From the sequence record MK327932.1: a stretch of 64,000 bases of DNA. One strand, written 5' to 3'. Position 1 is the first letter of the stretch; each line of letters opens with the position of its first letter. The position numbers were made by a program, and so were the translations under genes. The notes below the pieces were generated by a model. It had not been told where the DNA came from. It worked only from the letters and a program-made list of their open reading frames with translations, and searched no databases. Origin of the DNA: Escherichia phage vB_EcoM_G2248. Of this stretch, positions 46,893 to 61,869 are shown piece by piece.

Positions 46893-49037
46893 TTATTCAC
46901 GTCCATTTGTATAGTAGTGTTTGAATCGACCGTAACCAGTTTCAATGGTCATTGTTCTTTGGTGAACAATAGCCCAATAACCGTTACAGGAATCTTGCAG
47001 ATACAAATCTTTACCTTTCATAAACTCATTAAAGATTGTTTTCTGCCAGTCATAATAGACAGAATCTTCAATCTTATCCATCCAACCGTGTGGGTCTTCA
47101 AGCAGTTCAACAAGTTCATCGATAACCCAATACGGACACGGACTAAATCGACCTTTACTAAATTCGTTGAACACAGTAACGGTTTTAGCTTCCGGTCTAG
47201 GTTCATCAGGTTCTTCCGGTCGACGATTAACCACAACCTGAACATATTTTGTATAACCGATAATTTCCCCAGAGTCCAACTCATCGTTATTGTTCTGGTC
47301 AGCAAAAGCAACGAATCTATAGACTCCAGAGTCACCTATAGTAGCATTAACTTTTGTGTATATCGGTGTTTTGGGATCGATAATCGGCAACCGAACACCA
47401 TTTTTACTAAACTCATACGTTGGAACGTATGTAGAAGGAGGATTTAATGTCGTTGCTTCTAATGTCAAAGTATCCCCTTCCATAATCTGTACAGGATGAG
47501 GTCCGTCAAATTCCATATTAGGAACAACTTCAACATTATAGGTTGCACGCCCTGCAATATCATAATCATGATGCGCACTATATGGGTCTACACTAGGACT
47601 ATCTCTATATTCATGCGCCCAAATGCCATTATGTTCACGATCCGCAGAGTCAGTAATTTTATACTCTTTAGCCTCAATTGGTAGTTCGGTCACAAAAACA
47701 TCATTTTTTGTTATAACCAAAGAACGAGTTTGAGTAAAATCGCTACTTGCGGGTGGCTCTGGATCGACGATCTTAATAACAATAGGTTCACCAACCTCAA
47801 TATTTCGATAATCGTATTCTTTGTCATAAATGTCAAGCATACGACGGTCGTAAAATAATGGCCTTCCTTTATTGAGGTCATATGCACCATCTTGATTAGA
47901 AGGGGCAACTAGTAATTGTAAAGCAACGCTATTATCATACTGCAAGTCCGATAAAGTAATTCGGTCATAACCTTCATCGCCATATTTTTTGCTTTGTAGA
48001 GTTTTACCACCCAACATCCACGTAAAATAAACATTATTATTAATCAAACTATAATGTCGATTCCACGTATTATCGGATGTTACTAATGGCATATCTAGAT
48101 TGACGGTGGACCCAGAAGGATAACGAAATTCAACGGAATTAAAATCACGATCAAAAAATTCATTGTCTTTGATTGTTACCGTGAATCTATGACGATCACC
48201 ATCAATATATGCTGTCCCTTCTCTGGTTTCACTTGCGGCCTTATATGCACGAACCAAAGCAACATAAACACCCGCATCGGTTTCTTGAGCATGTTTCGTT
48301 ACAAACAGAGTCCTGTCTGTAGATTCATAAATTAAGCTACCATCTTCTCTTTCCAGACGATAACGGACAACGGTATATTCATCATTGGCGGGAGAATCGT
48401 CTGTCACCGTAAAATAGACAGGAGCATATTTCTGTGCGTTAAAAATTTCCGCGCTTTCCTGAATGGTGGCCTCAAACGGATAAACAAATTTCACGTCACC
48501 CGCTTCATCGCTAAGTTCCATTCTATATGTGCCAGAAAATTCAGGCCATGCAAATTTTGCAATTTTAAATTCACGATGGTCTAAACCAAGATCCCCGTCA
48601 ATAGTATCAACAAGACCGTCATTATAATAAAGGTCGATAGAAATGTTTTCTGGGATATGAATACGAAAAACAATTTTAGCCTTTATTTCGTCACCAACCA
48701 CAAAGGAAGTTGGAGGATATACATATTCAACATACTGATTATCAAATAATTCAAATGTGAAATTTTCCGTGCCGATATCAACGGATTCACCAGCAAAATC
48801 ATTATCATCTTGGGCATAGCCACGAACATTAACAGACCATCCTGTTTTATCGCTTTCTTTCACAGATTTTAATTCAAAAGACGGTGTATCGGTTGTAGCA
48901 ACAACCACCCCACCTTTTTTCCAAACATAACCTTTTTTCGGTTTAGTTGGATCATCTGATTCGGCAGCAATTGAGCACGCGAACGTATGAGGAAGCCAAA
49001 TGGTTGTGTTAATGCTAGTATCTTTTACTTCTGGCAT
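46893..49037 (-). CDS. large beta-rich protein, function unknown
   Basis: 714 aa; strong SD GGGGGAA; repetitive beta-strand-like segments and distinct C-terminal domain; followed by terminator 46856-46883. Confidence 0.55.
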   Translation of the reverse strand: MPEVKDTSINTTIWLPHTFACSIAAESDDPTKPKKGYVWKKGGVVVATTDTPSFELKSVKESDKTGWSVNVRGYAQDDNDFAGESVDIGTENFTFELFDNQYVEYVYPPTSFVVGDEIKAKIVFRIHIPENISIDLYYNDGLVDTIDGDLGLDHREFKIAKFAWPEFSGTYRMELSDEAGDVKFVYPFEATIQESAEIFNAQKYAPVYFTVTDDSPANDEYTVVRYRLEREDGSLIYESTDRTLFVTKHAQETDAGVYVALVRAYKAASETREGTAYIDGDRHRFTVTIKDNEFFDRDFNSVEFRYPSGSTVNLDMPLVTSDNTWNRHYSLINNNVYFTWMLGGKTLQSKKYGDEGYDRITLSDLQYDNSVALQLLVAPSNQDGAYDLNKGRPLFYDRRMLDIYDKEYDYRNIEVGEPIVIKIVDPEPPASSDFTQTRSLVITKNDVFVTELPIEAKEYKITDSADREHNGIWAHEYRDSPSVDPYSAHHDYDIAGRATYNVEVVPNMEFDGPHPVQIMEGDTLTLEATTLNPPSTYVPTYEFSKNGVRLPIIDPKTPIYTKVNATIGDSGVYRFVAFADQNNNDELDSGEIIGYTKYVQVVVNRRPEEPDEPRPEAKTVTVFNEFSKGRFSPCPYWVIDELVELLEDPHGWMDKIEDSVYYDWQKTIFNEFMKGKDLYLQDSCNGYWAIVHQRTMTIETGYGRFKHYYTNGRE

Positions 49038-49059: not shown

Positions 49060-49458
49060 TTAAGCCAGTCGAGTGAGTTTATAAATGGTTTTAAAGCATA
49101 GAGCTTTGATATCGTCTAAAACGCTCTGTAACGAGCTATCAACATCATTATAAATCTCACTAGCCATTTGCGTTAACTCTTGCAAATAGGCAATTTCGCT
49201 AATCTCCTTGCGGACGACCAACGTTGGTTGATAACGACCAGTGATCCCAATATTGGTTTCAGTGAAATTATCAACCAATTCTTGCATTTCAAGATAGAAC
49301 TCTTCTAGCGCCTTATGTTTTGCATAAGAACCAGGACCAGTCACCCCAAAATGCGCAGAATGCATATAAGTAACACTCATCAGACATTCACCGATAAAGC
49401 GGTCAACTTTATTAGCTTTCCCGTCTTCGGACGTCTTTCGAAAATCACTGAATTTCAT
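49060..49458 (-). CDS. hypothetical protein, possibly ferritin/Dps-like
   Basis: start at internal ATG with GGAG SD (MKFSDF...); HSAHFGVTGPGSYAKHKALEEFY resembles the Dps H-x12-H ferroxidase helix. Confidence 0.35.
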   Translation of the reverse strand: MKFSDFRKTSEDGKANKVDRFIGECLMSVTYMHSAHFGVTGPGSYAKHKALEEFYLEMQELVDNFTETNIGITGRYQPTLVVRKEISEIAYLQELTQMASEIYNDVDSSLQSVLDDIKALCFKTIYKLTRLA

Positions 49459-49747
49459 GTTCTCGATTCTCCATATTATGCAACATAACAAATTGGTTTG
49501 CGGCATATTCCCCCATAATAAAACACTGCTTAGAGTCCATACATTTACTACGAGCGTACATCTTCATAATGTGGGCATGAAATTTCTGGCTGGTTTCAAT
49601 GGAAGGAGATATTTTGTTTACATATACTATCATCGCACCGTCGAAATAATCAGTAAAGTCACCAGTTAGATCATATTGATCAGCACTGACACTTCCGACC
49701 GCTGTCAAGCATATTGCCGTTGTTAGAGTTTTACGAATAAATGACAT
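49445..49747 (-). CDS. small secreted protein (signal peptide)
   Basis: 100 aa; N-terminal MSFIRKTLTTAICLTAVGSVSA; late-promoter motif TATAAATA about 33 nt upstream. Confidence 0.5.
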   Translation of the reverse strand: MSFIRKTLTTAICLTAVGSVSADQYDLTGDFTDYFDGAMIVYVNKISPSIETSQKFHAHIMKMYARSKCMDSKQCFIMGEYAANQFVMLHNMENREHEIQ

Positions 49748-49780: not shown

Positions 49781-49788
49781 TATTTATA
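49781..49788 (-). promoter_or_regulatory. candidate T4-type late promoter (TATAAATA)
   Basis: minus-sense TATAAATA about 33 nt upstream of the ATG of the secreted-protein gene 49445-49747. Confidence 0.35.
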
Positions 49789-50940: not shown

Positions 50941-51143
50941 TTACATTTAGGGCAATGCGGTTCTTTAATATAATACCCGTCTGTCTTTGGAACACTAACA
51001 GGAGCGGTTTTTATATTGTATTCAGTGAAACAACGAAAACAAGTTACGTTTTCTACAGACTGACGTTTCACCCAATCACCGGAATAGAGATCATTTTTAT
51101 TTGTCATATTCCACCACCACAATGTTAATGTCTGGAGTGGCAA
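50913..51143 (-). CDS. Cys-rich zinc-ribbon-like protein
   Basis: 76 aa; CFRCF...CPKCKC. Confidence 0.4.
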   Translation of the reverse strand: MPLQTLTLWWWNMTNKNDLYSGDWVKRQSVENVTCFRCFTEYNIKTAPVSVPKTDGYYIKEPHCPKCKCRLYWSHL

Positions 51144-51552
51144 TATTAATGATTTCTTCTACACATTCCCACTCAAGGCCACCGATACCGCAACCGATTT
51201 TAGGAATATAGAAAGGCTGTATAGCACCTTCAAAAACATCATTGAGAGCCTCAAATCCTTTCAGGATAGCACCATATTCAGCATTTGGACCCGGTCGGAA
51301 TTGGGTATAGAGATTAACCCCGCACCAATTATAACCATTAACTTGATGCGTCCAGACACTAAACCCACCCAGCTTTTCGACCTTACCGCGAGAAGTTTGC
51401 TTGTCAATCTCTAACGCTTGCGGGAACTCTTTCGCGATCTTCGCAGCAATACCAGCGCCCATAGTATGAAAACAATTACAACCATGAATTAAATGACCTT
51501 TTCCTTGTTTAAACAGGGCGATGAGATCGCCCTTTACAGTATCAATAATCAT
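51097..51552 (-). CDS. macro domain protein (ADP-ribose binding/hydrolase fold)
   Basis: 151 aa; VKGDL...HGCNCFHTMGAGIAAKI and IPKIGCGIGGLEWE resemble macro-domain glycine-rich loops. Confidence 0.6.
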   Translation of the reverse strand: MIIDTVKGDLIALFKQGKGHLIHGCNCFHTMGAGIAAKIAKEFPQALEIDKQTSRGKVEKLGGFSVWTHQVNGYNWCGVNLYTQFRPGPNAEYGAILKGFEALNDVFEGAIQPFYIPKIGCGIGGLEWECVEEIINIATPDINIVVVEYDK

Positions 51553-51567
51553 AATATAAACCTCTCA

Positions 51568-51927
51568 TTAGTCACGGGAAGACAACCCAGCCATAAAACG
51601 GCTTAACAGTGTGTCGCGATAAGCAAAGCATAATTGCTTATCAGGGGCAGTATCACACAGGTTGCGTTTTGTTTTAGCAAAGCTGGCAATACTCAGATCC
51701 CATGCTCGATTTTTTCGTTTTTCGTCTCGACCTTGTTTGTATGCTTCATCAAGTTCGAGCGCGATAAAATCACTACACATGTTATCATCATCACAGAAAG
51801 TTTTAATGATCTTTTTGTTGATCTCAAATCCTTTGTATTCGAACTTTGGATAATGGCGCTCATTACTAGCAAGCGCACCAGCCGATAACATCATAGCAAT
51901 CATAGCAATTATTGTCAACTTTTTCAT
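51568..51927 (-). CDS. small secreted protein (signal peptide)
   Basis: 119 aa; N-terminal MKKLTIIAMIAMMLSAGALA. Confidence 0.5.
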   Translation of the reverse strand: MKKLTIIAMIAMMLSAGALASNERHYPKFEYKGFEINKKIIKTFCDDDNMCSDFIALELDEAYKQGRDEKRKNRAWDLSIASFAKTKRNLCDTAPDKQLCFAYRDTLLSRFMAGLSSRD

Positions 51928-51934
51928 ATATTCC

Positions 51935-52525
51935 TCAATAGCGTTTAGTCTTAAGAATGCCTTTACTCTTTAGATGGTTGGCCTTTTTTAGTACGTCATC
52001 AGCATAACCTAATCCGGCTTTATAGTTCCATCCAGCATTGTAAGAAGCTAGCGCGAGTCGGATATTACCGTTTCGAACATCCAGCCAGTATGCTAACTCA
52101 TCCATCGCGTAGAATGCAGAAACCTCGCGATTCATGATAAAGTTGATAGTCTGGCGATCACTCATTTTAACACCGCGCTTTGCATTTTTCGCTTTCACCG
52201 TTTTAAGGTAATTTTGAAATAATCCATAAGCATGATGATTTTTCTTTGGTGCTAAGTTTGCACCCGCGCTTGATTCTTGCCATGCGATACCCGCCAGGAT
52301 GTGGCCTAAACCCTTTCCGTCATAGCGAATATTCGGATGGTCATTTTTCAACTTACCGCTTTTCTCGAATTGTTCGCCATATTGATAGGCGAAATGTAAA
52401 TTATCTAGTTGGTGTGCTGTAAAGTTGTCTATCGGCGCTTTTTTGATCGGTGCGCTAGTCGATGCGTGTGTAGCACCAACGGCTAGTGACAGACTCAATA
52501 CTATCGCTTTTAGAACTTTTAACAT
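51935..52525 (-). CDS. secreted lytic transglycosylase (SLT domain)
   Basis: 196 aa; signal peptide; SLT catalytic motif GIAWQESS and AYNAGWN. Confidence 0.65.
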   Translation of the reverse strand: MLKVLKAIVLSLSLAVGATHASTSAPIKKAPIDNFTAHQLDNLHFAYQYGEQFEKSGKLKNDHPNIRYDGKGLGHILAGIAWQESSAGANLAPKKNHHAYGLFQNYLKTVKAKNAKRGVKMSDRQTINFIMNREVSAFYAMDELAYWLDVRNGNIRLALASYNAGWNYKAGLGYADDVLKKANHLKSKGILKTKRY

Positions 52526-52612
52526 TAATTTCTCCTGTTTGGCTTAACTTTCTGATTCCATAATATAGCCCTATCACCAGAAAGTCAAGCATTATTTTTA
52601 ACCAATTTTCCA

Positions 52613-53035
52613 TTATTGGTCTACCTTCAAAACAACCGCCGACATTTTACCCGCCAGTCGTTTTGGATTCTCTATAATCATTCGACAGCATAGACCGTGA
52701 TATGGCTTACCCTCTTCGATTAGATCTACTGTCATCCCGATCCACATGTTGCCGTCAGTAATTTCTAATCGATTAGGTCGGTCTTCCATTTTCAGGAAGT
52801 CGAAGATCTCCGGCAAACGAGTTTCTATCTTATTGAATAATTCCATTGTCTTATGTTCATCGATATGACGATCGGTTAGACGGTCGATCATATGCGGACT
52901 AAAGCGAATGAAAATATACTCACCGTAACCATCATTCAAGCACTTTTCTTTGATCTGCGCATTGGTTTTGCGCATTTCGGTTTCGAAGAATCTACGCAGC
53001 TTACTACGGCGAACATGTACGTTAATTGTTTCCAT
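52613..53035 (-). CDS. regB: RegB endoribonuclease
   Basis: start at internal ATG (METINVHVRRSKLRRFFE...) paralleling T4 RegB; RLEITDGN block. Confidence 0.6.
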   Translation of the reverse strand: METINVHVRRSKLRRFFETEMRKTNAQIKEKCLNDGYGEYIFIRFSPHMIDRLTDRHIDEHKTMELFNKIETRLPEIFDFLKMEDRPNRLEITDGNMWIGMTVDLIEEGKPYHGLCCRMIIENPKRLAGKMSAVVLKVDQ

Positions 53036-56819: not shown

Positions 56820-57011
56820 TTAGATTCCGGCGATCCTGCATAGAGTTCTTGTATTAGCACCAATCAGGATCGCATTAACGACAACCATTCCCCAATCAAC
56901 CCACTGATTATTATAAATGCTAAACCCGTTTGCAAGACCAAATACAAGCATTCCGGTACACATACTCAGAGCAATAATCAACATCACGGTAAAACCAAAT
57001 GCAAATTTCAT
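56820..57011 (-). CDS. small membrane protein
   Basis: 63 aa, two TM-like segments. Confidence 0.45.
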   Translation of the reverse strand: MKFAFGFTVMLIIALSMCTGMLVFGLANGFSIYNNQWVDWGMVVVNAILIGANTRTLCRIAGI

Positions 57012-57012
57012 A

Positions 57013-57279
57013 TTATTTTCCTTTTCTCTGTTTACGTTTATAAAAGTAATACATTACCTCATCACGTCCGGTGATCCAACATGCTAGGGCGGTAAACAGG
57101 TTTACAATTCCCAACACACCTACTGACGCGGCGCTGTCAACAGACATAGGAACAGTAAAGGCCATAGCTAACATAGCAACGCCACAAATGACATTAAGCA
57201 CCATTATAATAAGACCGAAGAAAACCATTGTCAATCCTCCGACACAAGAAAACCAACAATCACGCCAGTGATAAGACAT
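57013..57279 (-). CDS. small membrane protein
   Basis: 88 aa, hydrophobic, basic C-terminus. Confidence 0.45.
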   Translation of the reverse strand: MSYHWRDCWFSCVGGLTMVFFGLIIMVLNVICGVAMLAMAFTVPMSVDSAASVGVLGIVNLFTALACWITGRDEVMYYFYKRKQRKGK

Positions 57280-57422
57280 GATGCGCCGCTAATCAGACAA
57301 CCCGCACCAAGTGATTCCCACCAGATCAGAGAAGCGACAATAACACAGAATCCCCATACTACCGCAATCACAACATAGGCAAGGGTCGCCCAAAACATAT
57401 ATTTGTTCATAATAAATCCCAT
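57231..57422 (-). CDS. small membrane protein
   Basis: 63 aa, hydrophobic. Confidence 0.4.
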   Translation of the reverse strand: MGFIMNKYMFWATLAYVVIAVVWGFCVIVASLIWWESLGAGCLISGASCLITGVIVGFLVSED

Positions 57423-57595
57423 TCACCAAACAAATAAGAAAAAAGCCATATCAACAGAAACGAGGCAATTGATCCGGCAAGCAAAATGATATTAGAGAAT
57501 CCGCCGTCTATCCAGGCGACAAAACAGAATACGCCAGTATAGAAGCATAAACCCATTACAAAGCATACTATAAGCAACCATAGACAAAACGCCAT
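57407..57595 (-). CDS. small membrane protein
   Basis: 62 aa, hydrophobic; GGAGGG SD. Confidence 0.45.
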   Translation of the reverse strand: MAFCLWLLIVCFVMGLCFYTGVFCFVAWIDGGFSNIILLAGSIASFLLIWLFSYLFGEWDLL

Positions 57596-57639
57596 AGAAA
57601 GCCCTCCATCGAGATAAATTAGTGCGGGTAGGGGACTGC

Positions 57640-57798
57640 ACTACCCGCTTTGTTAATCATCGCAGAGCGTGTTCTAGAACGATTCCACACCAACCGCTAA
57701 CCACACCAAAACACACAGCAACAAGCAGATTCATTCGGTCTTTTGGAATCATCGCAAACAGAACAACACCCACACAGAAAGCCATCACCATTGAAGTT
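57640..57798 (-). CDS. small membrane protein (about 52 aa)
   Basis: untracked ORF MVEQMLTSMVMAFCVGVVLFAM...; coordinates approximate. Confidence 0.3.
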
Positions 57799-57817
57799 AA
57801 CATTTGTTCAACCATTA

Positions 57818-58156
57818 TCACACCTTTAAAGTCATAGACGCATAAACATTAATGCCAGGCCAGTTAGGATCGCAATTATACTCAACATCCCACAAATAAA
57901 GCGGTTTAGATGTATCAGCCAAGTTTTTAAAATCTTCTACCCACATTTCAAGGCTATATGATGGATAAACTAGGCTATCATATCCGCCGTAACGTTGGCC
58001 TACTGGTCGGTCAGTAAAAACTACATCAAGATCCGGTAATTCTTTTTCAAGGATAACCGCCAGCGCATAAATCAGACTGTCTTCCTTGTTACGCTGCCGA
58101 AGGACCGTTGTCAGTTGGTTTTTCTGGTTCACTAGCAAGCACCTCCACATTTTCAC
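57818..58156 (-). CDS. hypothetical protein
   Basis: 112-aa ORF; true start likely internal (overlaps upstream ORF). Confidence 0.4.
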   Translation of the reverse strand: MKMWRCLLVNQKNQLTTVLRQRNKEDSLIYALAVILEKELPDLDVVFTDRPVGQRYGGYDSLVYPSYSLEMWVEDFKNLADTSKPLYLWDVEYNCDPNWPGINVYASMTLKV

Positions 58157-58409
58157 AGAATGAAATTTTCACAGACACAATTTTACCATAAGTGAAGAAT
58201 GAATATACATTATCGAGATATTCAACGTCACCTACAATCACATCAAACTGAGGATCAGCCACCGCCGCAACATATTCTACCAGTTCATCAAGAGAATGCA
58301 ACTTAATTTCATCAATTCGGCTGTATTTGGTTGCATCTTTGATTTTAAAACCACGTTCTTTCAGCTTATCAATTAGAATTTCACGCGGAGTTTCAAACAG
58401 TTTGCTCAT
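58089..58409 (-). CDS. hypothetical protein
   Basis: 106-aa ORF. Confidence 0.45.
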   Translation of the reverse strand: MSKLFETPREILIDKLKERGFKIKDATKYSRIDEIKLHSLDELVEYVAAVADPQFDVIVGDVEYLDNVYSFFTYGKIVSVKISFCENVEVLASEPEKPTDNGPSAA

Positions 58410-58430
58410 AATATAATCCTCACATTAAAT

Positions 58431-58631
58431 CTAAAATTTGTTAACGACGAATTGCATAATTAGACTAATCACAAACATTGCAAACCAAGTATAAATGCAA
58501 CAGATAAAAGCTACATACAATTCAATCTGGTCAGAGAATACACCGGGTAAAAGCATTAGCAAAATAACAACAGTAAAAACGCTAGCGATACCCGCAACAA
58601 AACCAATATCATTTTTACTAATCGTCATCAA
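58431..58631 (-). CDS. small membrane protein
   Basis: 66 aa, two TM-like segments. Confidence 0.45.
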   Translation of the reverse strand: MMTISKNDIGFVAGIASVFTVVILLMLLPGVFSDQIELYVAFICCIYTWFAMFVISLIMQFVVNKF

Positions 58632-58825
58632 GTCACCGTTTTGTAAAGAAACACAATAAAATCCCAGACAAAAAAGACAGTGAAAATAATCATCGTCAAG
58701 ACAATAAACACTGTCAGATTTTCATCGTTAGTTAATTCATGACCGTCCATCCATATAATCACCAGATAAAACATCGAAATCAAGGAGGCGAATACCAAAT
58801 TATAAAACTCTTCCTTTAATGACAT
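58628..58825 (-). CDS. small membrane protein
   Basis: 65 aa. Confidence 0.45.
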   Translation of the reverse strand: MSLKEEFYNLVFASLISMFYLVIIWMDGHELTNDENLTVFIVLTMIIFTVFFVWDFIVFLYKTVT

Positions 58826-58826
58826 A

Positions 58827-59009
58827 CTACACCTCGTCGCGGCTTAAGTCAACAGCAATTGCATACAGCATAATGAATATGCTAGCCGATCCGAGAATCA
58901 ATACACCCTCACATTTTGAAACTCGCTCATCAAAATGTAACATTATCCATCCGAGGATGTTAAAGGCGCAGACCGCGCCTATGTTCGCTAACCAATTAAT
59001 CTTTTTCAT
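58827..59009 (-). CDS. small membrane protein
   Basis: 60 aa. Confidence 0.4.
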   Translation of the reverse strand: MKKINWLANIGAVCAFNILGWIMLHFDERVSKCEGVLILGSASIFIMLYAIAVDLSRDEV

Positions 59010-59017
59010 AATATACC

Positions 59018-59344
59018 TTAGAAAGAAACAGTTTTCAAGAAATCCAGATTTTTAGTACCGAAAACAGAAAAGTAGTGTTTTCCTTTTTCGGTTTTAGAGA
59101 AAGCGATTGTCTTCTCTACATGGTGACGGAAGCCAGACAGACGATCACCCAGGTCAAGGCGGCAAGCGTAAGTAGTGCCGTTTTCGAAAGTAACCTCGAT
59201 TTGAGTTTTGTCATATTCGCTTTCATAGGCTTTTGCTGCCGCGTCCTGTGCTTTACGCTCGAAGTCTTCGAAGTGGAATACTTCGTTTGCGTTAGCGAAT
59301 ACAGAAGATTCAGAGAAGATAACTTTAACAGATACTGGTTTCAT
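59018..59344 (-). CDS. hypothetical protein
   Basis: 108 aa; GGAGTATCAAAATG start; promoter at 59387-59415. Confidence 0.5.
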   Translation of the reverse strand: MKPVSVKVIFSESSVFANANEVFHFEDFERKAQDAAAKAYESEYDKTQIEVTFENGTTYACRLDLGDRLSGFRHHVEKTIAFSKTEKGKHYFSVFGTKNLDFLKTVSF

Positions 59345-59386
59345 TTTGATACTCCTTAGTAGTTCGTGTTTCGTTTCGATGGGTGT

Positions 59387-59415
59387 ATTATGCTATACAC
59401 CCTCTCTCGTGTCAA
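59387..59415 (-). promoter_or_regulatory. early promoter
   Basis: TTGACA-N17-CATAAT then ACACCCATCGAAACGAAACAC leader. Confidence 0.55.
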
Positions 59416-59423
59416 CAACTTTT

Positions 59424-59612
59424 TTAGTCTTTTTTCATAATTTCTAGAGCAGTTTCTACAGCACCTTTCCAACCTTCCCACATAATGGACATAGTAAGGA
59501 AGTTAAAGCACCCGCAGGAATCAACCTTTTTAGAGATAAACCATTCTACAAACGCTTCGCTCATACCATGCTCTTTAGCGGATTCGCGTAATTGTTCAAT
59601 TTGGTCTTCCAT
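59424..59612 (-). CDS. hypothetical protein
   Basis: 62-aa ORF. Confidence 0.4.
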   Translation of the reverse strand: MEDQIEQLRESAKEHGMSEAFVEWFISKKVDSCGCFNFLTMSIMWEGWKGAVETALEIMKKD

Positions 59613-59634
59613 AGTATCACCTCAACACTTAACG

Positions 59635-59829
59635 TTATTCAAACTCAAACGGTCTATTCATCCTATTGTAAAAGTACATATAACAAGCATAGTTATGTTT
59701 TGGTTGTACCGTATCAGATAGACACGCTTTTACAGCCTCGCGGTCCGATGGGTCTACACCCTCAGCTTTAAGTAATGCTAAAATCTGGTTATAGCGTACT
59801 CTTAGTTGTACTAATGGTTTATCCCCCAT
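59635..59829 (-). CDS. hypothetical protein
   Basis: 64-aa ORF. Confidence 0.4.
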   Translation of the reverse strand: MGDKPLVQLRVRYNQILALLKAEGVDPSDREAVKACLSDTVQPKHNYACYMYFYNRMNRPFEFE

Positions 59830-59838
59830 ATTACCCCC

Positions 59839-60060
59839 TTATAGTTGATCAGCGATGTAAGCGTGACAAGCGCGGAGTTTCATTAATGCACTACCTTTCA
59901 CTTCGCCTACGATGTTCATAACTTCTAAGCGGTCGGATGGATTCATCTTAGAGCACCAGATCTGGTTAGCCAATTCCAGTTTACTCATATTTGGTTCCAT
60001 CTCAAACAGTTCACGCTCAAAGTCGATAATTTCTTTTGCTGCGTCTTTAAAGTTAATCAT
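59839..60060 (-). CDS. hypothetical protein
   Basis: 73 aa; GGGAGAATCAAAATG start; promoter at 60090-60118. Confidence 0.5.
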   Translation of the reverse strand: MINFKDAAKEIIDFERELFEMEPNMSKLELANQIWCSKMNPSDRLEVMNIVGEVKGSALMKLRACHAYIADQL

Positions 60061-60089
60061 TTTGATTCTCCCGTTTCGTTGATGGTTGT

Positions 60090-60118
60090 ATTGTAGGGGA
60101 GTTATCCTCCCCTGTCAA
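60090..60118 (-). promoter_or_regulatory. early promoter cassette with spacer palindrome
   Basis: TTGACA-GGGGAGGATAACTCCCC-TACAAT. Confidence 0.55.
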
Positions 60119-60126
60119 CACTTTTA

Positions 60127-60312
60127 TCAGAAATATGCAATATAGTTTGCCAGTCCTACAGAGTCATCATTCGGCATTGCTTTTACTGCCAGTTCAAACC
60201 CTACTTCAACTTTCTGTTTAGCGGATTCTTCGTTATAACCCCAGATTACCAGAATAGCTACTACGTTTTCTTTGCTTACTGCTTTCAGTGCTTTAGTGAT
60301 GCGACGTGCCAT
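60127..60312 (-). CDS. hypothetical protein
   Basis: 61 aa; GGAGAATCAAATTATG start; promoter at 60359-60387. Confidence 0.5.
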   Translation of the reverse strand: MARRITKALKAVSKENVVAILVIWGYNEESAKQKVEVGFELAVKAMPNDDSVGLANYIAYF

Positions 60313-60358
60313 AATTTGATTCTCCGTTTAAGAAAGTGTGTTTCGTTTCGATGGGTGT

Positions 60359-60387
60359 ATTATGCTATAGGCCGGATCTGGTGTCAA
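60359..60387 (-). promoter_or_regulatory. early promoter
   Basis: TTGACA-N17-CATAAT then ACACCCATCGAAACGAAACAC leader. Confidence 0.55.
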
Positions 60388-60415
60388 CAACTTTTTTAAA
60401 AAAATTTTAGGCAAT

Positions 60416-60439
60416 AAAAAAGCCACTCCGAAGAGTGGC
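60416..60439 (-). terminator. rho-independent terminator ending the structured RNA region
   Basis: hairpin GCCACUC-UUCG-GAGUGGC + U6. Confidence 0.6.
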
Positions 60440-60584
60440 TTATAGGGAAGGTAGCGAATCTTCCTTGTCTCCAACCTGCTAGCGGCCTAGCAAGTGAATG
60501 CTTTAGCGTACCGGATCGCCCATACGCTGCAATAAATGCGGCTAGGTGACGTCCAAATCATTCTAACCGCGCTGTCTTTAGTTC
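60416..60584 (-). ncRNA. candidate structured small RNA between a late-promoter motif and a terminator
   Basis: about 170 nt without convincing ORF; four consecutive hairpins (8-bp GCGGTTAG/CTAGCCGC, 6-bp AGCGTA/TACGCT, 8-bp CTTGCTAG/CTAGCAGG, 5-bp GGAAG/CTTCC) then terminator GCCACTC-CGAA-GAGTGGC + U-run; TATAAATA at 60590-60597 upstream. Confidence 0.35.
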
Positions 60585-60588
60585 ACTA

Positions 60589-60807
60589 TTATTTATATCG
60601 CTTTCTCTCGCGACGTTTTTGATCTTCTTCCTTGATAGAGTTAAATGCATCAAAAAGACACATGACACTAATAATAAACATAACCGTATTTTCTACGGTA
60701 TCCCACGGCTTCGCATCAGTACAGATCCCCCAAACGGTAAGAAATGCAAATAAGGCAGAAGAGATCACAAGAATGATACTTGCTAAAATATAAAAAGTCA
60801 TTTTCAT
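60589..60807 (-). CDS. small membrane protein
   Basis: 72 aa, hydrophobic N-terminus, basic C-terminus. Confidence 0.45.
   Translation of the reverse strand: MKMTFYILASIILVISSALFAFLTVWGICTDAKPWDTVENTVMFIISVMCLFDAFNSIKEEDQKRRERKRYK
60590..60597 (-). promoter_or_regulatory. candidate T4-type late promoter (TATAAATA)
   Basis: minus-sense TATAAATA overlapping the stop of ORF 60589-60807, directly upstream of the structured non-coding region. Confidence 0.35.
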
Positions 60808-60998
60808 GGTTTTACCTCAATTCTTCGATATTCATCACACATCCACGCAGTAAGCAAGAATCCCAACACATAAGCAACAAAATACGTTAATGCTTCTTCT
60901 GGTTCGGTGCTATGCGCCATCATCAGACCAGCGAGAAAGGTCTTAACAATTACATTTAAAATAATTAGCCACGCAAATAATTTCATCGTTTGCCCCAT
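60804..60998 (-). CDS. small membrane protein
   Basis: 64 aa. Confidence 0.45.
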   Translation of the reverse strand: MGQTMKLFAWLIILNVIVKTFLAGLMMAHSTEPEEALTYFVAYVLGFLLTAWMCDEYRRIEVKP

Positions 60999-61222
60999 TT
61001 CGGTCGAGTCTTTTCAAACTTATACATTCCGTAACAATCTCGAATCATCCACGTAACAAGAGCACCAGTCAACACAGACAATACACAGAAGAAGTAAAAC
61101 GGTCCGGTTGCATTATCAACATGAGCAAGCCAGGTAAAGAAAACACATGCAAGGAATGTAAAGAACATCATAAAGCACAAGAAAGCGAAATATTTTATAC
61201 TACTCATAGCGCCACCATACAA
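60983..61222 (-). CDS. small membrane protein
   Basis: 79 aa. Confidence 0.45.
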   Translation of the reverse strand: MYGGAMSSIKYFAFLCFMMFFTFLACVFFTWLAHVDNATGPFYFFCVLSVLTGALVTWMIRDCYGMYKFEKTRPKWGKR

Positions 61223-61310
61223 CAGATCATAAGAAACCCCAACGCAATAAGAATTGCATCAAATTTAGTGAACTCAGGTCCACCTATCAACATCATTCGT
61301 TCCTGTTCAT

Positions 61311-61553
61311 TCATAGATCACAGAGCCATCTTACAGCACCACATAAAGCGATCAAAAGACTAGGTATAAACGAGACTAAAACAAGACTACAAAAATCATC
61401 TAAGGTAACGCCGGAATAGCTACCTACTGTAACAACACCGATCATCAGACACAGAAAGAAAACAAATGCAATCAGAAACAAAGTATTGCTAAACAGTTTA
61501 GTGATCATTAGACACCCCACGACGATCAATTTCAAAAACTTTTTTATCATCAA
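61311..61553 (-). CDS. small membrane protein
   Basis: 80 aa, three hydrophobic segments. Confidence 0.45.
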   Translation of the reverse strand: MMIKKFLKLIVVGCLMITKLFSNTLFLIAFVFFLCLMIGVVTVGSYSGVTLDDFCSLVLVSFIPSLLIALCGAVRWLCDL

Positions 61554-61701
61554 CGAAGCATGTCACAACTGCATCGTTGACTTCCGCAAATTGTTGTGTT
61601 ACCCACTTAAGGTCAGAGCGAAACAATGTTCTATTAATAACAAATGTTTTACCGCTCTTATCCTTACCCATAAATTTTGCTTTAACCATATCAAATTCCA
61701 T
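61498..61701 (-). CDS. hypothetical protein
   Basis: 67-aa ORF. Confidence 0.4.
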   Translation of the reverse strand: MEFDMVKAKFMGKDKSGKTFVINRTLFRSDLKWVTQQFAEVNDAVVTCFVDDKKVFEIDRRGVSNDH

Positions 61702-61710
61702 ATTATCACC

Positions 61711-61869
61711 TTATTTGCTAATCGCTAAACCCAATCCGAAGAGAGCACCCGATGCTACAGTATACCCGAAAGTTTCAAATGCAGTAAAGATATCTAAGCC
61801 ACCAGCTAACAGAGTTGCAGTAAACAGAGTACCAGCTACGAACATAAAAGTTTTACCGATAAATTTCAT
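61711..61869 (-). CDS. small hydrophobic protein (52 aa)
   Basis: untracked ORF MKFIGKTFMFVAGTLFTATLLAGG...; GGAGAATCAAAATG start; promoter at 61901-61929. Confidence 0.4.
   Translation of the reverse strand: MKFIGKTFMFVAGTLFTATLLAGGLDIFTAFETFGYTVASGALFGLGLAISK

What the first reader, a model, noticed from the sequence alone, without database searches (positions are those of the whole stretch)
51568..52525. Secreted lytic transglycosylase and adjacent secreted small protein
The ORF at 51935-52525 has a signal peptide plus the SLT active-site motif (GIAWQESS) and AYNAGWN; the neighbouring 119-aa ORF also has a signal peptide. A periplasm-targeted transglycosylase made during infection could remodel peptidoglycan for DNA entry or exit, or antagonise superinfecting phage.
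Basis: partly seen in the sequence, partly recalled or inferred. Interest (0 to 1): 0.4.

Follow-up and report, generated by a model that had tools for sequence, protein, structure and literature searches.

The report
Phage genes vs.1 and vs, both exported
These two ORFs are the already-catalogued T4-family genes vs.1 (a cell-wall-cutting enzyme sent to the periplasm early in infection) and vs. The finding is ordinary except that vs, always labelled a modifier of a cytoplasmic tRNA synthetase, looks like an exported protein.

Summary
On the minus strand, 51935-52525 encodes a 196-aa protein with a Sec-type signal peptide and an SLT/GH23 lytic-transglycosylase domain. 51568-51927 encodes a 119-aa protein that also has a signal peptide.

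The window is an RB49-like Krischvirus (98% identity), and the ORFs are the annotated genes vs.1 and vs ("valyl-tRNA synthetase modifier"). The similarity of vs.1 to SLT was published in 2006, so the finding is already known.

- **Vs.1:** The AlphaFold model (pLDDT 89) matches only lytic transglycosylases such as MltD, Slt and Slt70. Glu84 is invariant and aligns with the catalytic Glu of Slt70.
- **Transcription:** A sigma70-type early promoter sits just upstream, and vs follows 7 nt after vs.1.
- **Spread:** vs.1 homologs occur in 2033 phage records across three phage groups.
- **Vs:** It is a small, T4-like-specific four-helix protein. In 61 of 62 members the signal peptide is kept (two carry a lipobox), and the only invariant residues are four Cys and two Gly. 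That pattern suggests a periplasmic, disulfide-bonded protein, which conflicts with its annotated cytoplasmic target.
- **Fitness:** In published T4 transposon data, insertions in both genes are about 10-fold under-represented, and vs is the gene most depleted in minimal medium.

The biological role is still untested.

The parts
52560..52588 (-). Sigma70-type (early) promoter TTGACT-17-TATTAT, 35 nt upstream of the vs.1 start codon
   Evidence: Consensus scan, 10 of 12 matches. The same site is annotated as promoter/-35/-10 in phage GEC-3S. The 1986 T4 record X04567 also places -35/-10 just before ORF 61.4 (= vs.1). Function is inferred, not shown.
51935..52525 (-). vs.1 CDS: 196-aa precursor of an exported SLT/GH23 lytic-transglycosylase-like enzyme (AGGAG Shine-Dalgarno 7 nt before the ATG)
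   Evidence: phrog_600, 5.5e-60; RB49 vs.1.
52463..52525 (-). Codons for the predicted Sec signal peptide of Vs.1 (residues 1-21, MLKVLKAIVLSLSLAVGATHA|S)
   Evidence: Heuristic and conservation across homologs. The exact cleavage site is inferred: the heuristic's top-scoring cut is after GA18, and I placed it after THA21.
52274..52276 (-). Codon GAA for Glu84 (mature Glu63), the candidate catalytic acid in the WQES motif
   Evidence: Invariant in 23 homologs. Aligns with Slt70 precursor Glu505, which is mature Glu478, in AIARQES. Codon read.
51568..51927 (-). vs CDS: 119-aa precursor of a small four-helix protein annotated 'valyl-tRNA synthetase modifier'. It starts 7 nt after the vs.1 stop, and its GAGGA Shine-Dalgarno overlaps that stop codon.
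   Evidence: phrog_1256, 2.8e-33; PF26829.
51868..51927 (-). Codons for the predicted Sec signal peptide of Vs (residues 1-20, MKKLTIIAMIAMMLSAGALA|S)
   Evidence: Top score of all window ORFs. 61 of 62 full-length family members pass the heuristic, and two have lipobox variants.

Best explanation
The two ORFs are the RB49-type orthologs of bacteriophage T4 genes vs.1 and vs. They form a two-gene unit transcribed from a sigma70-type early promoter.

Vs.1 is made as a 21.8-kDa precursor and exported by the Sec pathway. The ~19.7-kDa mature enzyme acts in the periplasm of the infected cell as a family-1 (GH23, Slt70-like) lytic transglycosylase. Glu84 serves as the single acid/base that cleaves MurNAc-GlcNAc bonds of host murein and produces 1,6-anhydro-MurNAc ends.

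Vs is co-expressed, probably by translational coupling, and most likely also exported. It would be an 11.6-kDa four-helix protein stabilised by two disulfides.

Together they give a non-essential fitness advantage that depends on conditions, through local remodelling of the sacculus during the pre-lysis phase.

Shown here: gene identity, domain, fold, conserved catalytic motifs, conserved signal peptides and cysteines, promoter-like site, synteny.
Inferred: actual export, enzymatic activity, disulfides, any cooperation between the two proteins, and the physiological purpose.
For: **Identity.** 98% nucleotide identity to RB49, GEC-3S, Phi1 and JSE, where the ORFs are annotated vs.1 and vs. PHROG hits: phrog_600 at 5.5e-60 and phrog_1256 at 2.8e-33.

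**Enzyme.**
- Pfam SLT is above its gathering score, and 22 of 23 homologs hit it.
- The AF2 model has pLDDT 88.9 and pTM 0.85.
- The top 24 Foldseek PDB hits are all lytic transglycosylases (MltD, Slt, Slt70, Cj0843, MltF) or a GH23 chitinase, with probability 0.66-1.0 (>=0.96 for the first 23).
- Invariant E-S, HHAYGxFQN and SYxAG motifs.
- hhalign places WQES on the AIARQES of Slt70.

**Export.**
- The two proteins give the two best signal-peptide scores in the window.
- The signals are conserved across Straboviridae, Ackermannviridae and Felix-O1-like homologs.
- In the Vs family, 61 of 62 members have signals, two have a lipobox, and the only invariant residues are 4 Cys and 2 Gly.

**Expression.**
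- Early-type promoter at 52588-52560.
- No late TATAAATA box nearby.
- 7-nt gap between the genes here, and an 8-nt overlap in T4.

**Fitness (T4 transposon data, bioRxiv 10.1101/2025.11.20.689424).**
- Mean insertion counts are 26.6 for vs and 22.6 for vs.1, against 179-652 for the flanking genes.
- LB vs M9: vs log2FC -2.19 (q=0), vs.1 -0.87 (p=0.0055).
- On clinical strain CFE299: vs.1 -1.20 (q=0.015).
- Both genes are classed non-essential.
Against: - No dedicated signal-peptide predictor or experiment was available. Export rests on a home-made heuristic plus conservation.
- Fold matches are consistent but modest (E 0.01-0.1, TM 0.45-0.55). Sequence and profile searches of PDB find nothing.
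- There is no enzymology for any family member.
- Vs is annotated as a binder of cytoplasmic ValRS. If that is true in vivo, at least part of it must stay in the cytoplasm.
- Vs.1 occurs without Vs in Aeromonas T4-likes, Ackermannviridae and Felix-O1-likes, so Vs.1 does not need Vs.
- The similar transposon phenotypes could reflect polarity of vs.1 insertions on vs.
Confidence: 0.7

Rival explanations
1. Vs is what the annotation says: a cytoplasmic polypeptide that binds host valyl-tRNA synthetase. Its hydrophobic N-terminus does not lead to export, or only part of the protein is exported. Its position next to vs.1 is inherited synteny with no functional link. Only Vs.1 is periplasmic.
For: - The name is used in all T4-type annotations and in Pfam PF26829 'ValRS_modifier'.
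- From my own recollection of the 1960s-80s literature (not checked here): T4 infection adds a ~10-kDa peptide to ValRS, and vs mutations change phage growth on valS(ts) hosts, which implies an effect in vivo.
- The minimal-medium defect of T4 delta-vs fits a translation-related role.
- Vs.1 occurs without Vs in several lineages.
Against: - Signal peptides are conserved in 61 of 62 members, and two switch to a lipoprotein signal.
- The four Cys are the only invariant side chains apart from Gly, and their spacing (Cx5C, Cx8-10C) is not zinc-finger-like.
- The 1986 T4 sequence record lists the gene only as 'ORF 60.9', with no vs assignment. I could not find the evidence that later linked the name to this ORF.
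- The predicted mature size in T4 (11.0 kDa) is closer than the precursor (13.1 kDa) to the ~10-kDa peptide I recall, which would imply processing by signal peptidase.
Confidence: 0.25
2. Vs.1 is an auxiliary or secretory endolysin that contributes to host lysis at the end of infection, as Sec- or SAR-exported endolysins do. Vs would be its periplasmic inhibitor or timer.
For: - A muralytic fold plus an export signal.
- The antiholin gene rI lies about 2 kb away.
- Nolan et al. 2006 suggested 'some role in cell lysis'.
Against: - The promoter is early-type, with no late promoter. The nearest TATAAATA is at 49781, in front of rI.
- The h-region is short (12-13 residues) and followed by an AxA-type site, typical of a cleaved signal rather than a SAR anchor.
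- The gene is not adjacent to a holin.
- T4 vs.1 is non-essential, and RB49-type phages carry a separate putative endolysin.
- The Vs model shows no fold similarity to any solved structure (all Foldseek E > 1); no lysozyme inhibitor, T4 Spackle included, is among the 50 listed PDB matches.
Confidence: 0.1
3. The pair acts against secondary infection or lysis-from-without, as the early periplasmic T4 proteins Spackle and Imm do.
For: Early expression and predicted periplasmic location. The vs.1 insertion phenotype depends on the host strain (CFE299).
Against: - A glycan-strand-cleaving enzyme would be expected to help rather than hinder a penetrating tail.
- The Vs model has no Foldseek match below E = 1 in the PDB, and no Spackle entry is among the 50 listed hits.
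- No data link these genes to exclusion.
- The fitness defect is seen in ordinary single-phage competitive growth.
Confidence: 0.07

Closest known systems
Bacteriophage T4 Vs.1 (ORF 61.4, 'uncharacterized 20.7 kDa protein') and RB49 Vs.1
   Same: An ortholog: 98% identical to a database Vs.1 cluster (P0001) in a locus 98% nt-identical to RB49, and roughly 50% identical to the T4-type proteins. It has the same position between regB and vs, the same signal peptide, the same motifs and the same upstream promoter.
   Different: Nothing of substance. The window protein has about 15 extra residues after the signal peptide (STSAPIKKAPID...).
E. coli Slt70 C-terminal domain and other family-1 (GH23) lytic transglycosylases (MltD, P. 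aeruginosa Slt, Cj0843)
   Same: Lysozyme-like helical fold, the E-S / G-L-x-Q / Y-N-x-G motifs, the catalytic Glu aligned, and periplasmic location.
   Different: - It is a single small domain (175 aa mature) with no superhelical U/L domains, LysM repeats or lipid anchor.
- Sequence similarity is marginal (no PDB sequence hit; hhalign E 0.12).
- It has a family-specific conserved N-terminal helix (QxDNLxxAYxxG).
- It is phage-encoded and expressed early.
'Specialised' lytic transglycosylases of conjugation, type III and type IV secretion systems (VirB1, P19 of plasmid R1, IpgF, EtgA). Comparison from my own knowledge.
   Same: The same minimal architecture: a Sec signal plus one ~150-170-aa SLT domain, encoded by a mobile element. 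These are thought to open the sacculus locally and are non-essential but improve efficiency.
   Different: No detectable sequence relationship: tblastn of Vs.1 against 72,556 plasmids finds nothing at E<=0.01. No trans-envelope machine is known to be assembled by the phage early in infection.
T4 Vs, 'modifier of valyl-tRNA synthetase' (Pfam PF26829, phrog_1256)
   Same: A family member by sequence and by predicted fold (TM 0.71-0.88 to the S16, phi25-307 and IME340 proteins). Same gene position.
   Different: About 29% identity to T4 Vs. The annotated biochemical function has not been tested for any RB49-type protein, and it conflicts with the predicted export of the whole family.
T4 Spackle (gp61.3), a periplasmic inhibitor of the gp5 tail lysozyme
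   Same: A small, early, signal-peptide-bearing helical periplasmic phage protein that deals with a muralytic enzyme. It is a conceptual model for what Vs might do towards Vs.1.
   Different: No Spackle entry is among the 50 listed PDB matches, and no match of any kind has E < 1. No evidence of an interaction.

Membership tests
Family-1 lytic transglycosylase / GH23 (Pfam SLT PF01464) | Match to the SLT profile above Pfam's gathering score | tested here: met
   26.5 bits against a 21.3 cut-off, E=5.1e-6, residues 76-167. 22 of 23 homologs also match.
Family-1 lytic transglycosylase / GH23 (Pfam SLT PF01464) | Lysozyme-like alpha-helical catalytic fold | tested here: met
   AF2 model with pLDDT 88.9. 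Foldseek PDB ranks 1-24 are lytic transglycosylases or a GH23 chitinase, with probability 0.66-1.0 (>=0.96 for ranks 1-23), TM 0.35-0.55 and E 0.01-0.8.
Family-1 lytic transglycosylase / GH23 (Pfam SLT PF01464) | Catalytic Glu in an E-S motif, plus the G-L-M-Q and A-Y-N-x-G motifs | tested here: met
   WQES(84), YGLFQ and SYNAG are invariant or nearly so in 23 sequences. Glu84 aligns with Slt70 precursor Glu505, which is mature Glu478. That Glu478 is the catalytic residue is from my own knowledge.
Family-1 lytic transglycosylase / GH23 (Pfam SLT PF01464) | No second catalytic carboxylate (this separates transglycosylases from goose-type lysozymes) | tested here: inconclusive
   No invariant Asp or Glu other than Glu63 and Glu122 (mature numbering) in the alignment.
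Family-1 lytic transglycosylase / GH23 (Pfam SLT PF01464) | Produces 1,6-anhydro-MurNAc muropeptides from murein | not testable with these tools
   Needs a purified enzyme and muropeptide analysis.
Sec/SPase I-exported periplasmic protein (both ORFs) | Positively charged n-region, 8-16-residue uncharged hydrophobic h-region, and small residues at -3/-1 | tested here: met
   My own heuristic gives the two highest scores of 119 window ORFs. The feature is conserved in 27 of 28 and 61 of 62 homologs. SignalP and DeepTMHMM were not available.
Sec/SPase I-exported periplasmic protein (both ORFs) | Demonstrated processing and periplasmic localisation | not testable with these tools
   Needs fractionation, PhoA fusions or N-terminal sequencing.
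T4 Vs family (PF26829 ValRS_modifier / phrog_1256) | Sequence and fold membership | tested here: met
   phrog_1256 at 2.8e-33. PF26829 is recorded for the 97%-identical P0024. BFVD fold matches are only to Vs proteins.
T4 Vs family (PF26829 ValRS_modifier / phrog_1256) | Binds and modifies host valyl-tRNA synthetase | not testable with these tools
The predicted export and the invariant Cys pairs argue against a cytoplasmic site of action.
Secretory or SAR endolysin of a lysis cassette | Late expression and linkage to holin/spanin genes | tested here: not met
   Early-type promoter and no late promoter. The neighbours are regB, vs and a macrodomain gene. A short cleavable signal rather than a SAR domain.
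Specialised lytic transglycosylases of conjugative plasmids/T4SS (P19, VirB1) | Detectable homology to plasmid-borne members | tested here: not met
   tblastn against 72,556 plasmids finds no match at E<=0.01. Only the architecture is alike.
Spackle-like periplasmic lysozyme inhibitor (for Vs) | Fold similarity to T4 Spackle or to Ivy/MliC/PliC inhibitors | tested here: not met
   Foldseek of the Vs model against PDB gives no match with E<1, and no lysozyme inhibitor appears among the 50 listed hits.

The most novel reading that the evidence does not exclude
The ORF carried in every T4-like genome as 'valyl-tRNA synthetase modifier' is really an exported, disulfide-bonded periplasmic protein. 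It works with, or regulates, the upstream periplasmic lytic transglycosylase Vs.1. The decades-old ValRS assignment to this ORF would then be a mis-mapping, a post-lysis artefact or a secondary activity. The minimal-medium fitness defect of T4 delta-vs would be an envelope phenotype, not a translation phenotype.
Probability: 0.3. Interest if true: 0.6.

Novelty: already known. Interest (0 to 1): 0.33.

Why it matters
vs.1 is one of the most widely conserved uncharacterised early genes of large virulent enterobacterial phages. It occurs in 2033 of 50,697 phage records, across Straboviridae, Ackermannviridae and Felix-O1-like phages.

An enzyme that cuts the host wall from inside the periplasm long before lysis has no assigned purpose. 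T4 transposon data show that losing it, or losing vs, costs fitness.

If Vs is truly periplasmic, a textbook T4 annotation needs revisiting, and the only strong minimal-medium phenotype found in T4 would point to envelope physiology. For this particular window, however, nothing is new: the genes are 97-98% identical to annotated RB49 genes.

Tried and rejected
- **PDB sequence searches.** Sequence and profile searches for both proteins found nothing useful.
- **NCBIfam.** No hit for either protein.
- **Plasmids.** tblastn of Vs.1 against plasmids, looking for P19/VirB1-type relatives, gave no match.
- **Vs fold.** Fold search of Vs against PDB returned only non-specific helical bundles with E>1. 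BFVD returned only other Vs proteins. The afdb50 library was unavailable.
- **Rosetta-stone fusions.** A Vs profile against 1.84 billion proteins found 27 clusters, all 77-134 aa, with no fusions.
- **Vs-like gene next to vs.1 in other lineages.** An HMM search in Ackermannviridae and Felix-O1-like loci found none. The downstream genes there have no signal peptide.
- **The 'Bacteroidales MAG' Vs homolog.** It turned out to sit on T4-like phage contigs.
- **Literature.** No paper in the held library characterises Vs.1 beyond Nolan 2006. The original ValRS papers and the 2003 T4 genome review are not held, so I could not check how the vs name was assigned to ORF 60.9.
- **The 52-aa ORF at 52455-52613(-).** Rejected as a gene because it overlaps the promoter and Shine-Dalgarno sequence of vs.1 and is not annotated in RB49 or GEC-3S.

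Full report
**What is there.**
On the minus strand, ORF 51935-52525 (196 aa) and ORF 51568-51927 (119 aa) lie head to tail. They are separated by 7 nt, and the GAGGA ribosome-binding site for the second ORF overlaps the stop codon of the first.

The surrounding 2.1 kb is 98.4-98.6% identical to RB49, GEC-3S, Phi1, JSE and about 50 other Krischvirus genomes, which are T4-like Straboviridae. In RB49 the two ORFs are annotated vs.1 ("conserved hypothetical protein") and vs ("valyl-tRNA synthetase modifier"). They lie between regB and the macrodomain gene tk.4, a few genes from tk and rI. Pfam and PHROG scans of the neighbours confirm this context: REGB_T4, Macro, Antiholin and RlaP. The T4 locus has the same order.

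**Check of the observation.**
- The SLT match is real. Pfam PF01464 scores 26.5 bits against a gathering score of 21.3 (E=5e-6), and 22 of 23 family members match it.
- GIAWQESS is present.
- The second motif reads ASYNAGWN rather than AYNAGWN.
- No signal-peptide program was available, so I wrote a simple n/h/c-region heuristic. Vs and Vs.1 score highest of 119 non-overlapping ORFs in the window. The other ORFs that pass are mostly small hydrophobic proteins.
- More telling is the conservation. The N-termini of 27 of 28 database homologs, and of the T4, Acinetobacter 133, KP27, Roth19, Felix-O1-like and Ackermannviridae proteins, keep a basic n-region, a 10-16-residue hydrophobic core and an AxA-like site, although their sequences differ.

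**Vs.1.**
- An alignment of 23 homologs (44-90% identity) has invariant Glu63 and Ser65 (mature numbering; Glu84 in the precursor), HxAYGxFQN and SYxAG.
- The AlphaFold2 model of the mature protein is confident (pLDDT 88.9, pTM 0.85).
- Its Foldseek matches in the PDB are lytic transglycosylases from rank 1 to 24: MltD, P. aeruginosa Slt, E. coli Slt70, Cj0843 and MltF, interleaved with a GH23 chitinase. Probabilities are near 1, but E-values (0.01-0.8) and TM-scores (0.35-0.55) are modest.
- hhalign against E. coli Slt places GIAWQESS on AIARQES. From my own knowledge, that segment contains the catalytic Glu478 of mature Slt70.
- Plain sequence and profile searches of the PDB find nothing, so the family is a distant, compact offshoot of family-1 transglycosylases.
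- The SLT similarity of vs.1 was reported by Nolan et al. 2006, who cite earlier PSI-BLAST matches for T4 vs.1 (PMC1524935).
- tblastn finds vs.1 homologs in 2033 phage records. Besides Straboviridae these include Ackermannviridae and Felix-O1-like phages, where the gene follows rIIA-rIIB.

**Vs.**
- The 119-aa protein belongs to phrog_1256 and Pfam PF26829.
- A profile search gave 45 proteins. An exhaustive HMM search of 1.84 billion cluster representatives found only 27 clusters, all 77-134 aa. This is a small family with no fusions, and every genomic context I examined is a T4-like phage.
- In an alignment of 43 members, the only invariant residues are four cysteines and two glycines.
- 61 of 62 full-length members pass the signal-peptide heuristic. 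The single exception looks like a mis-called start. Two members have a lipobox (LSGC, LVSC) in place of the AxA site.
- The AF2 model is a four-helix bundle (pLDDT 83). The cysteine pairs straddle the H1-H2 and H3-H4 turns.
- The fold has no significant match in the PDB. In BFVD it matches only other Vs proteins, including T4-type ones (TM 0.71-0.88).
- These are the hallmarks of an exported, disulfide-stabilised protein, which does not fit the annotated partner, cytoplasmic ValRS.
- The original 1986 T4 sequence record calls the gene merely "ORF 60.9". I could not retrieve the evidence on which the vs name was later attached.
- The predicted mature T4 protein is 11.0 kDa and the precursor 13.1 kDa. 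From memory, the ValRS-associated peptide was reported as about 10 kDa.

**Expression and linkage.**
- A sigma70-type promoter (TTGACT-17-TATTAT) lies at 52588-52560, 35 nt upstream of vs.1. It is annotated as a promoter in GEC-3S, and the T4 record places -35/-10 boxes at the equivalent position. KP27 annotates a middle promoter there.
- No late-promoter box is near.
- In T4 the vs start codon overlaps the end of vs.1 by 8 nt.
- In all 10 loci examined that contain vs, vs.1 lies 0-1.1 kb upstream.
- vs.1 occurs without vs in Aeromonas T4-likes, Ackermannviridae and Felix-O1-likes.
- So Vs.1 is the older and more widespread component. Vs is a lineage-restricted companion, or simply a syntenic neighbour.

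**Phenotype (published data).**
The source is the HIDEN-SEQ transposon study of T4 (bioRxiv 10.1101/2025.11.20.689424).
- Both genes are classed non-essential on plates.
- After liquid competition in LB, mean insertion counts are 26.6 for vs and 22.6 for vs.1. The flanking genes give 179 (regB), 290 (tk.4) and 652 (vs.3).
- In M9-glucose, vs is the most depleted gene (log2FC -2.19, q=0), and vs.1 trends the same way (-0.87, p=0.0055).
- On clinical strain CFE299, vs.1 is significantly depleted (-1.20, q=0.015).
- A clean vs deletion plaques poorly on M9.
- The parallel behaviour could mean a shared function, or polarity of vs.1 insertions on vs.

**Interpretation.**
The best-supported reading is an early, Sec-exported, Slt70-like lytic transglycosylase plus a co-expressed, probably exported, small disulfide protein. 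Both would act in the periplasm as non-essential fitness factors.

Its functional guesses are untested, and a role in lysis is disfavoured by the early promoter and by non-essentiality.

The architecture resembles the "specialised" transglycosylases of secretion and conjugation systems, but there is no detectable homology to plasmid genes.

**Novelty and score.**
The genes, their names and the SLT similarity are already on record, so the finding itself is "already known" and of modest interest.

The one point a specialist might find surprising is that the whole "ValRS modifier" family looks exported and is tied to a periplasmic murein enzyme. I put about 0.3 on the reading that the annotation is wrong or incomplete and that Vs works in the periplasm with Vs.1. 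It is cheaply testable by fractionation, PhoA fusions, a ValRS assay after a clean deletion, and complementation with signal-less Vs.

Noticed in passing
window 46893-49037 (-): A 714-aa ORF next to rI.-1 with no Pfam domain. It is full-length in only four Krischvirus records (UPWr_E1, Brandy, SSG23, SFHK24), at about 77% nucleotide identity, and is absent from RB49 and Phi1. It is a variable accessory gene of unknown function.
   Followed up: partly
window 51890-51918 (-): The best sigma70-like match in the 7-kb scan (TTGACA-17-TATGAT with an extended TG, 11 of 12) lies inside the signal-peptide codons of vs. It may be chance or an internal promoter for tk.4.
   Followed up: no
window 51097-51552 (-): The tk.4 macrodomain protein (Pfam Macro, phrog_335). 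Its T4 ortholog was recently named AdfM, an anti-DarTG2 factor.
   Followed up: partly
public records: L010 (Erwinia phage Panisse) 3004-3516; hits H22, H34, H23, H78, H106: Annotation errors are propagating. vs.1 homologs are labelled 'endoribonuclease/RegB' (Panisse, TB34, vB_EcoM_P8) or 'C-type lysozyme/alpha-lactalbumin family' (Roth19). vs is labelled 'valyl-tRNA synthetase' in Kpn6N and JK08.
   Followed up: no
window 56820-61869 (-): A run of at least nine small (52-88 aa), strongly hydrophobic ORFs that pass the signal/TM heuristic. They are probably small membrane proteins of unknown function.
   Followed up: no
window 52455-52613 (-): A 52-aa ORF overlapping the vs.1 promoter, Shine-Dalgarno sequence and first codons. 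It is not annotated in RB49 or GEC-3S and has no family hit, so it is probably not a gene.
   Followed up: partly
window 49781-49788 (-): One of only two T4-type late-promoter boxes (TATAAATA) in the window sits 34 nt upstream of the rI antiholin gene (49445-49747), consistent with late expression of rI.
   Followed up: no
L017 3868-4308 (Aeromonas phage 31): In this phage, which has vs.1 but no vs, a 146-aa putative lipoprotein (MKKSIATLIAIGMYGC...) lies about 300 nt downstream of vs.1, after an intervening 75-aa ORF. It could be an analogous exported partner or unrelated.
   Followed up: no
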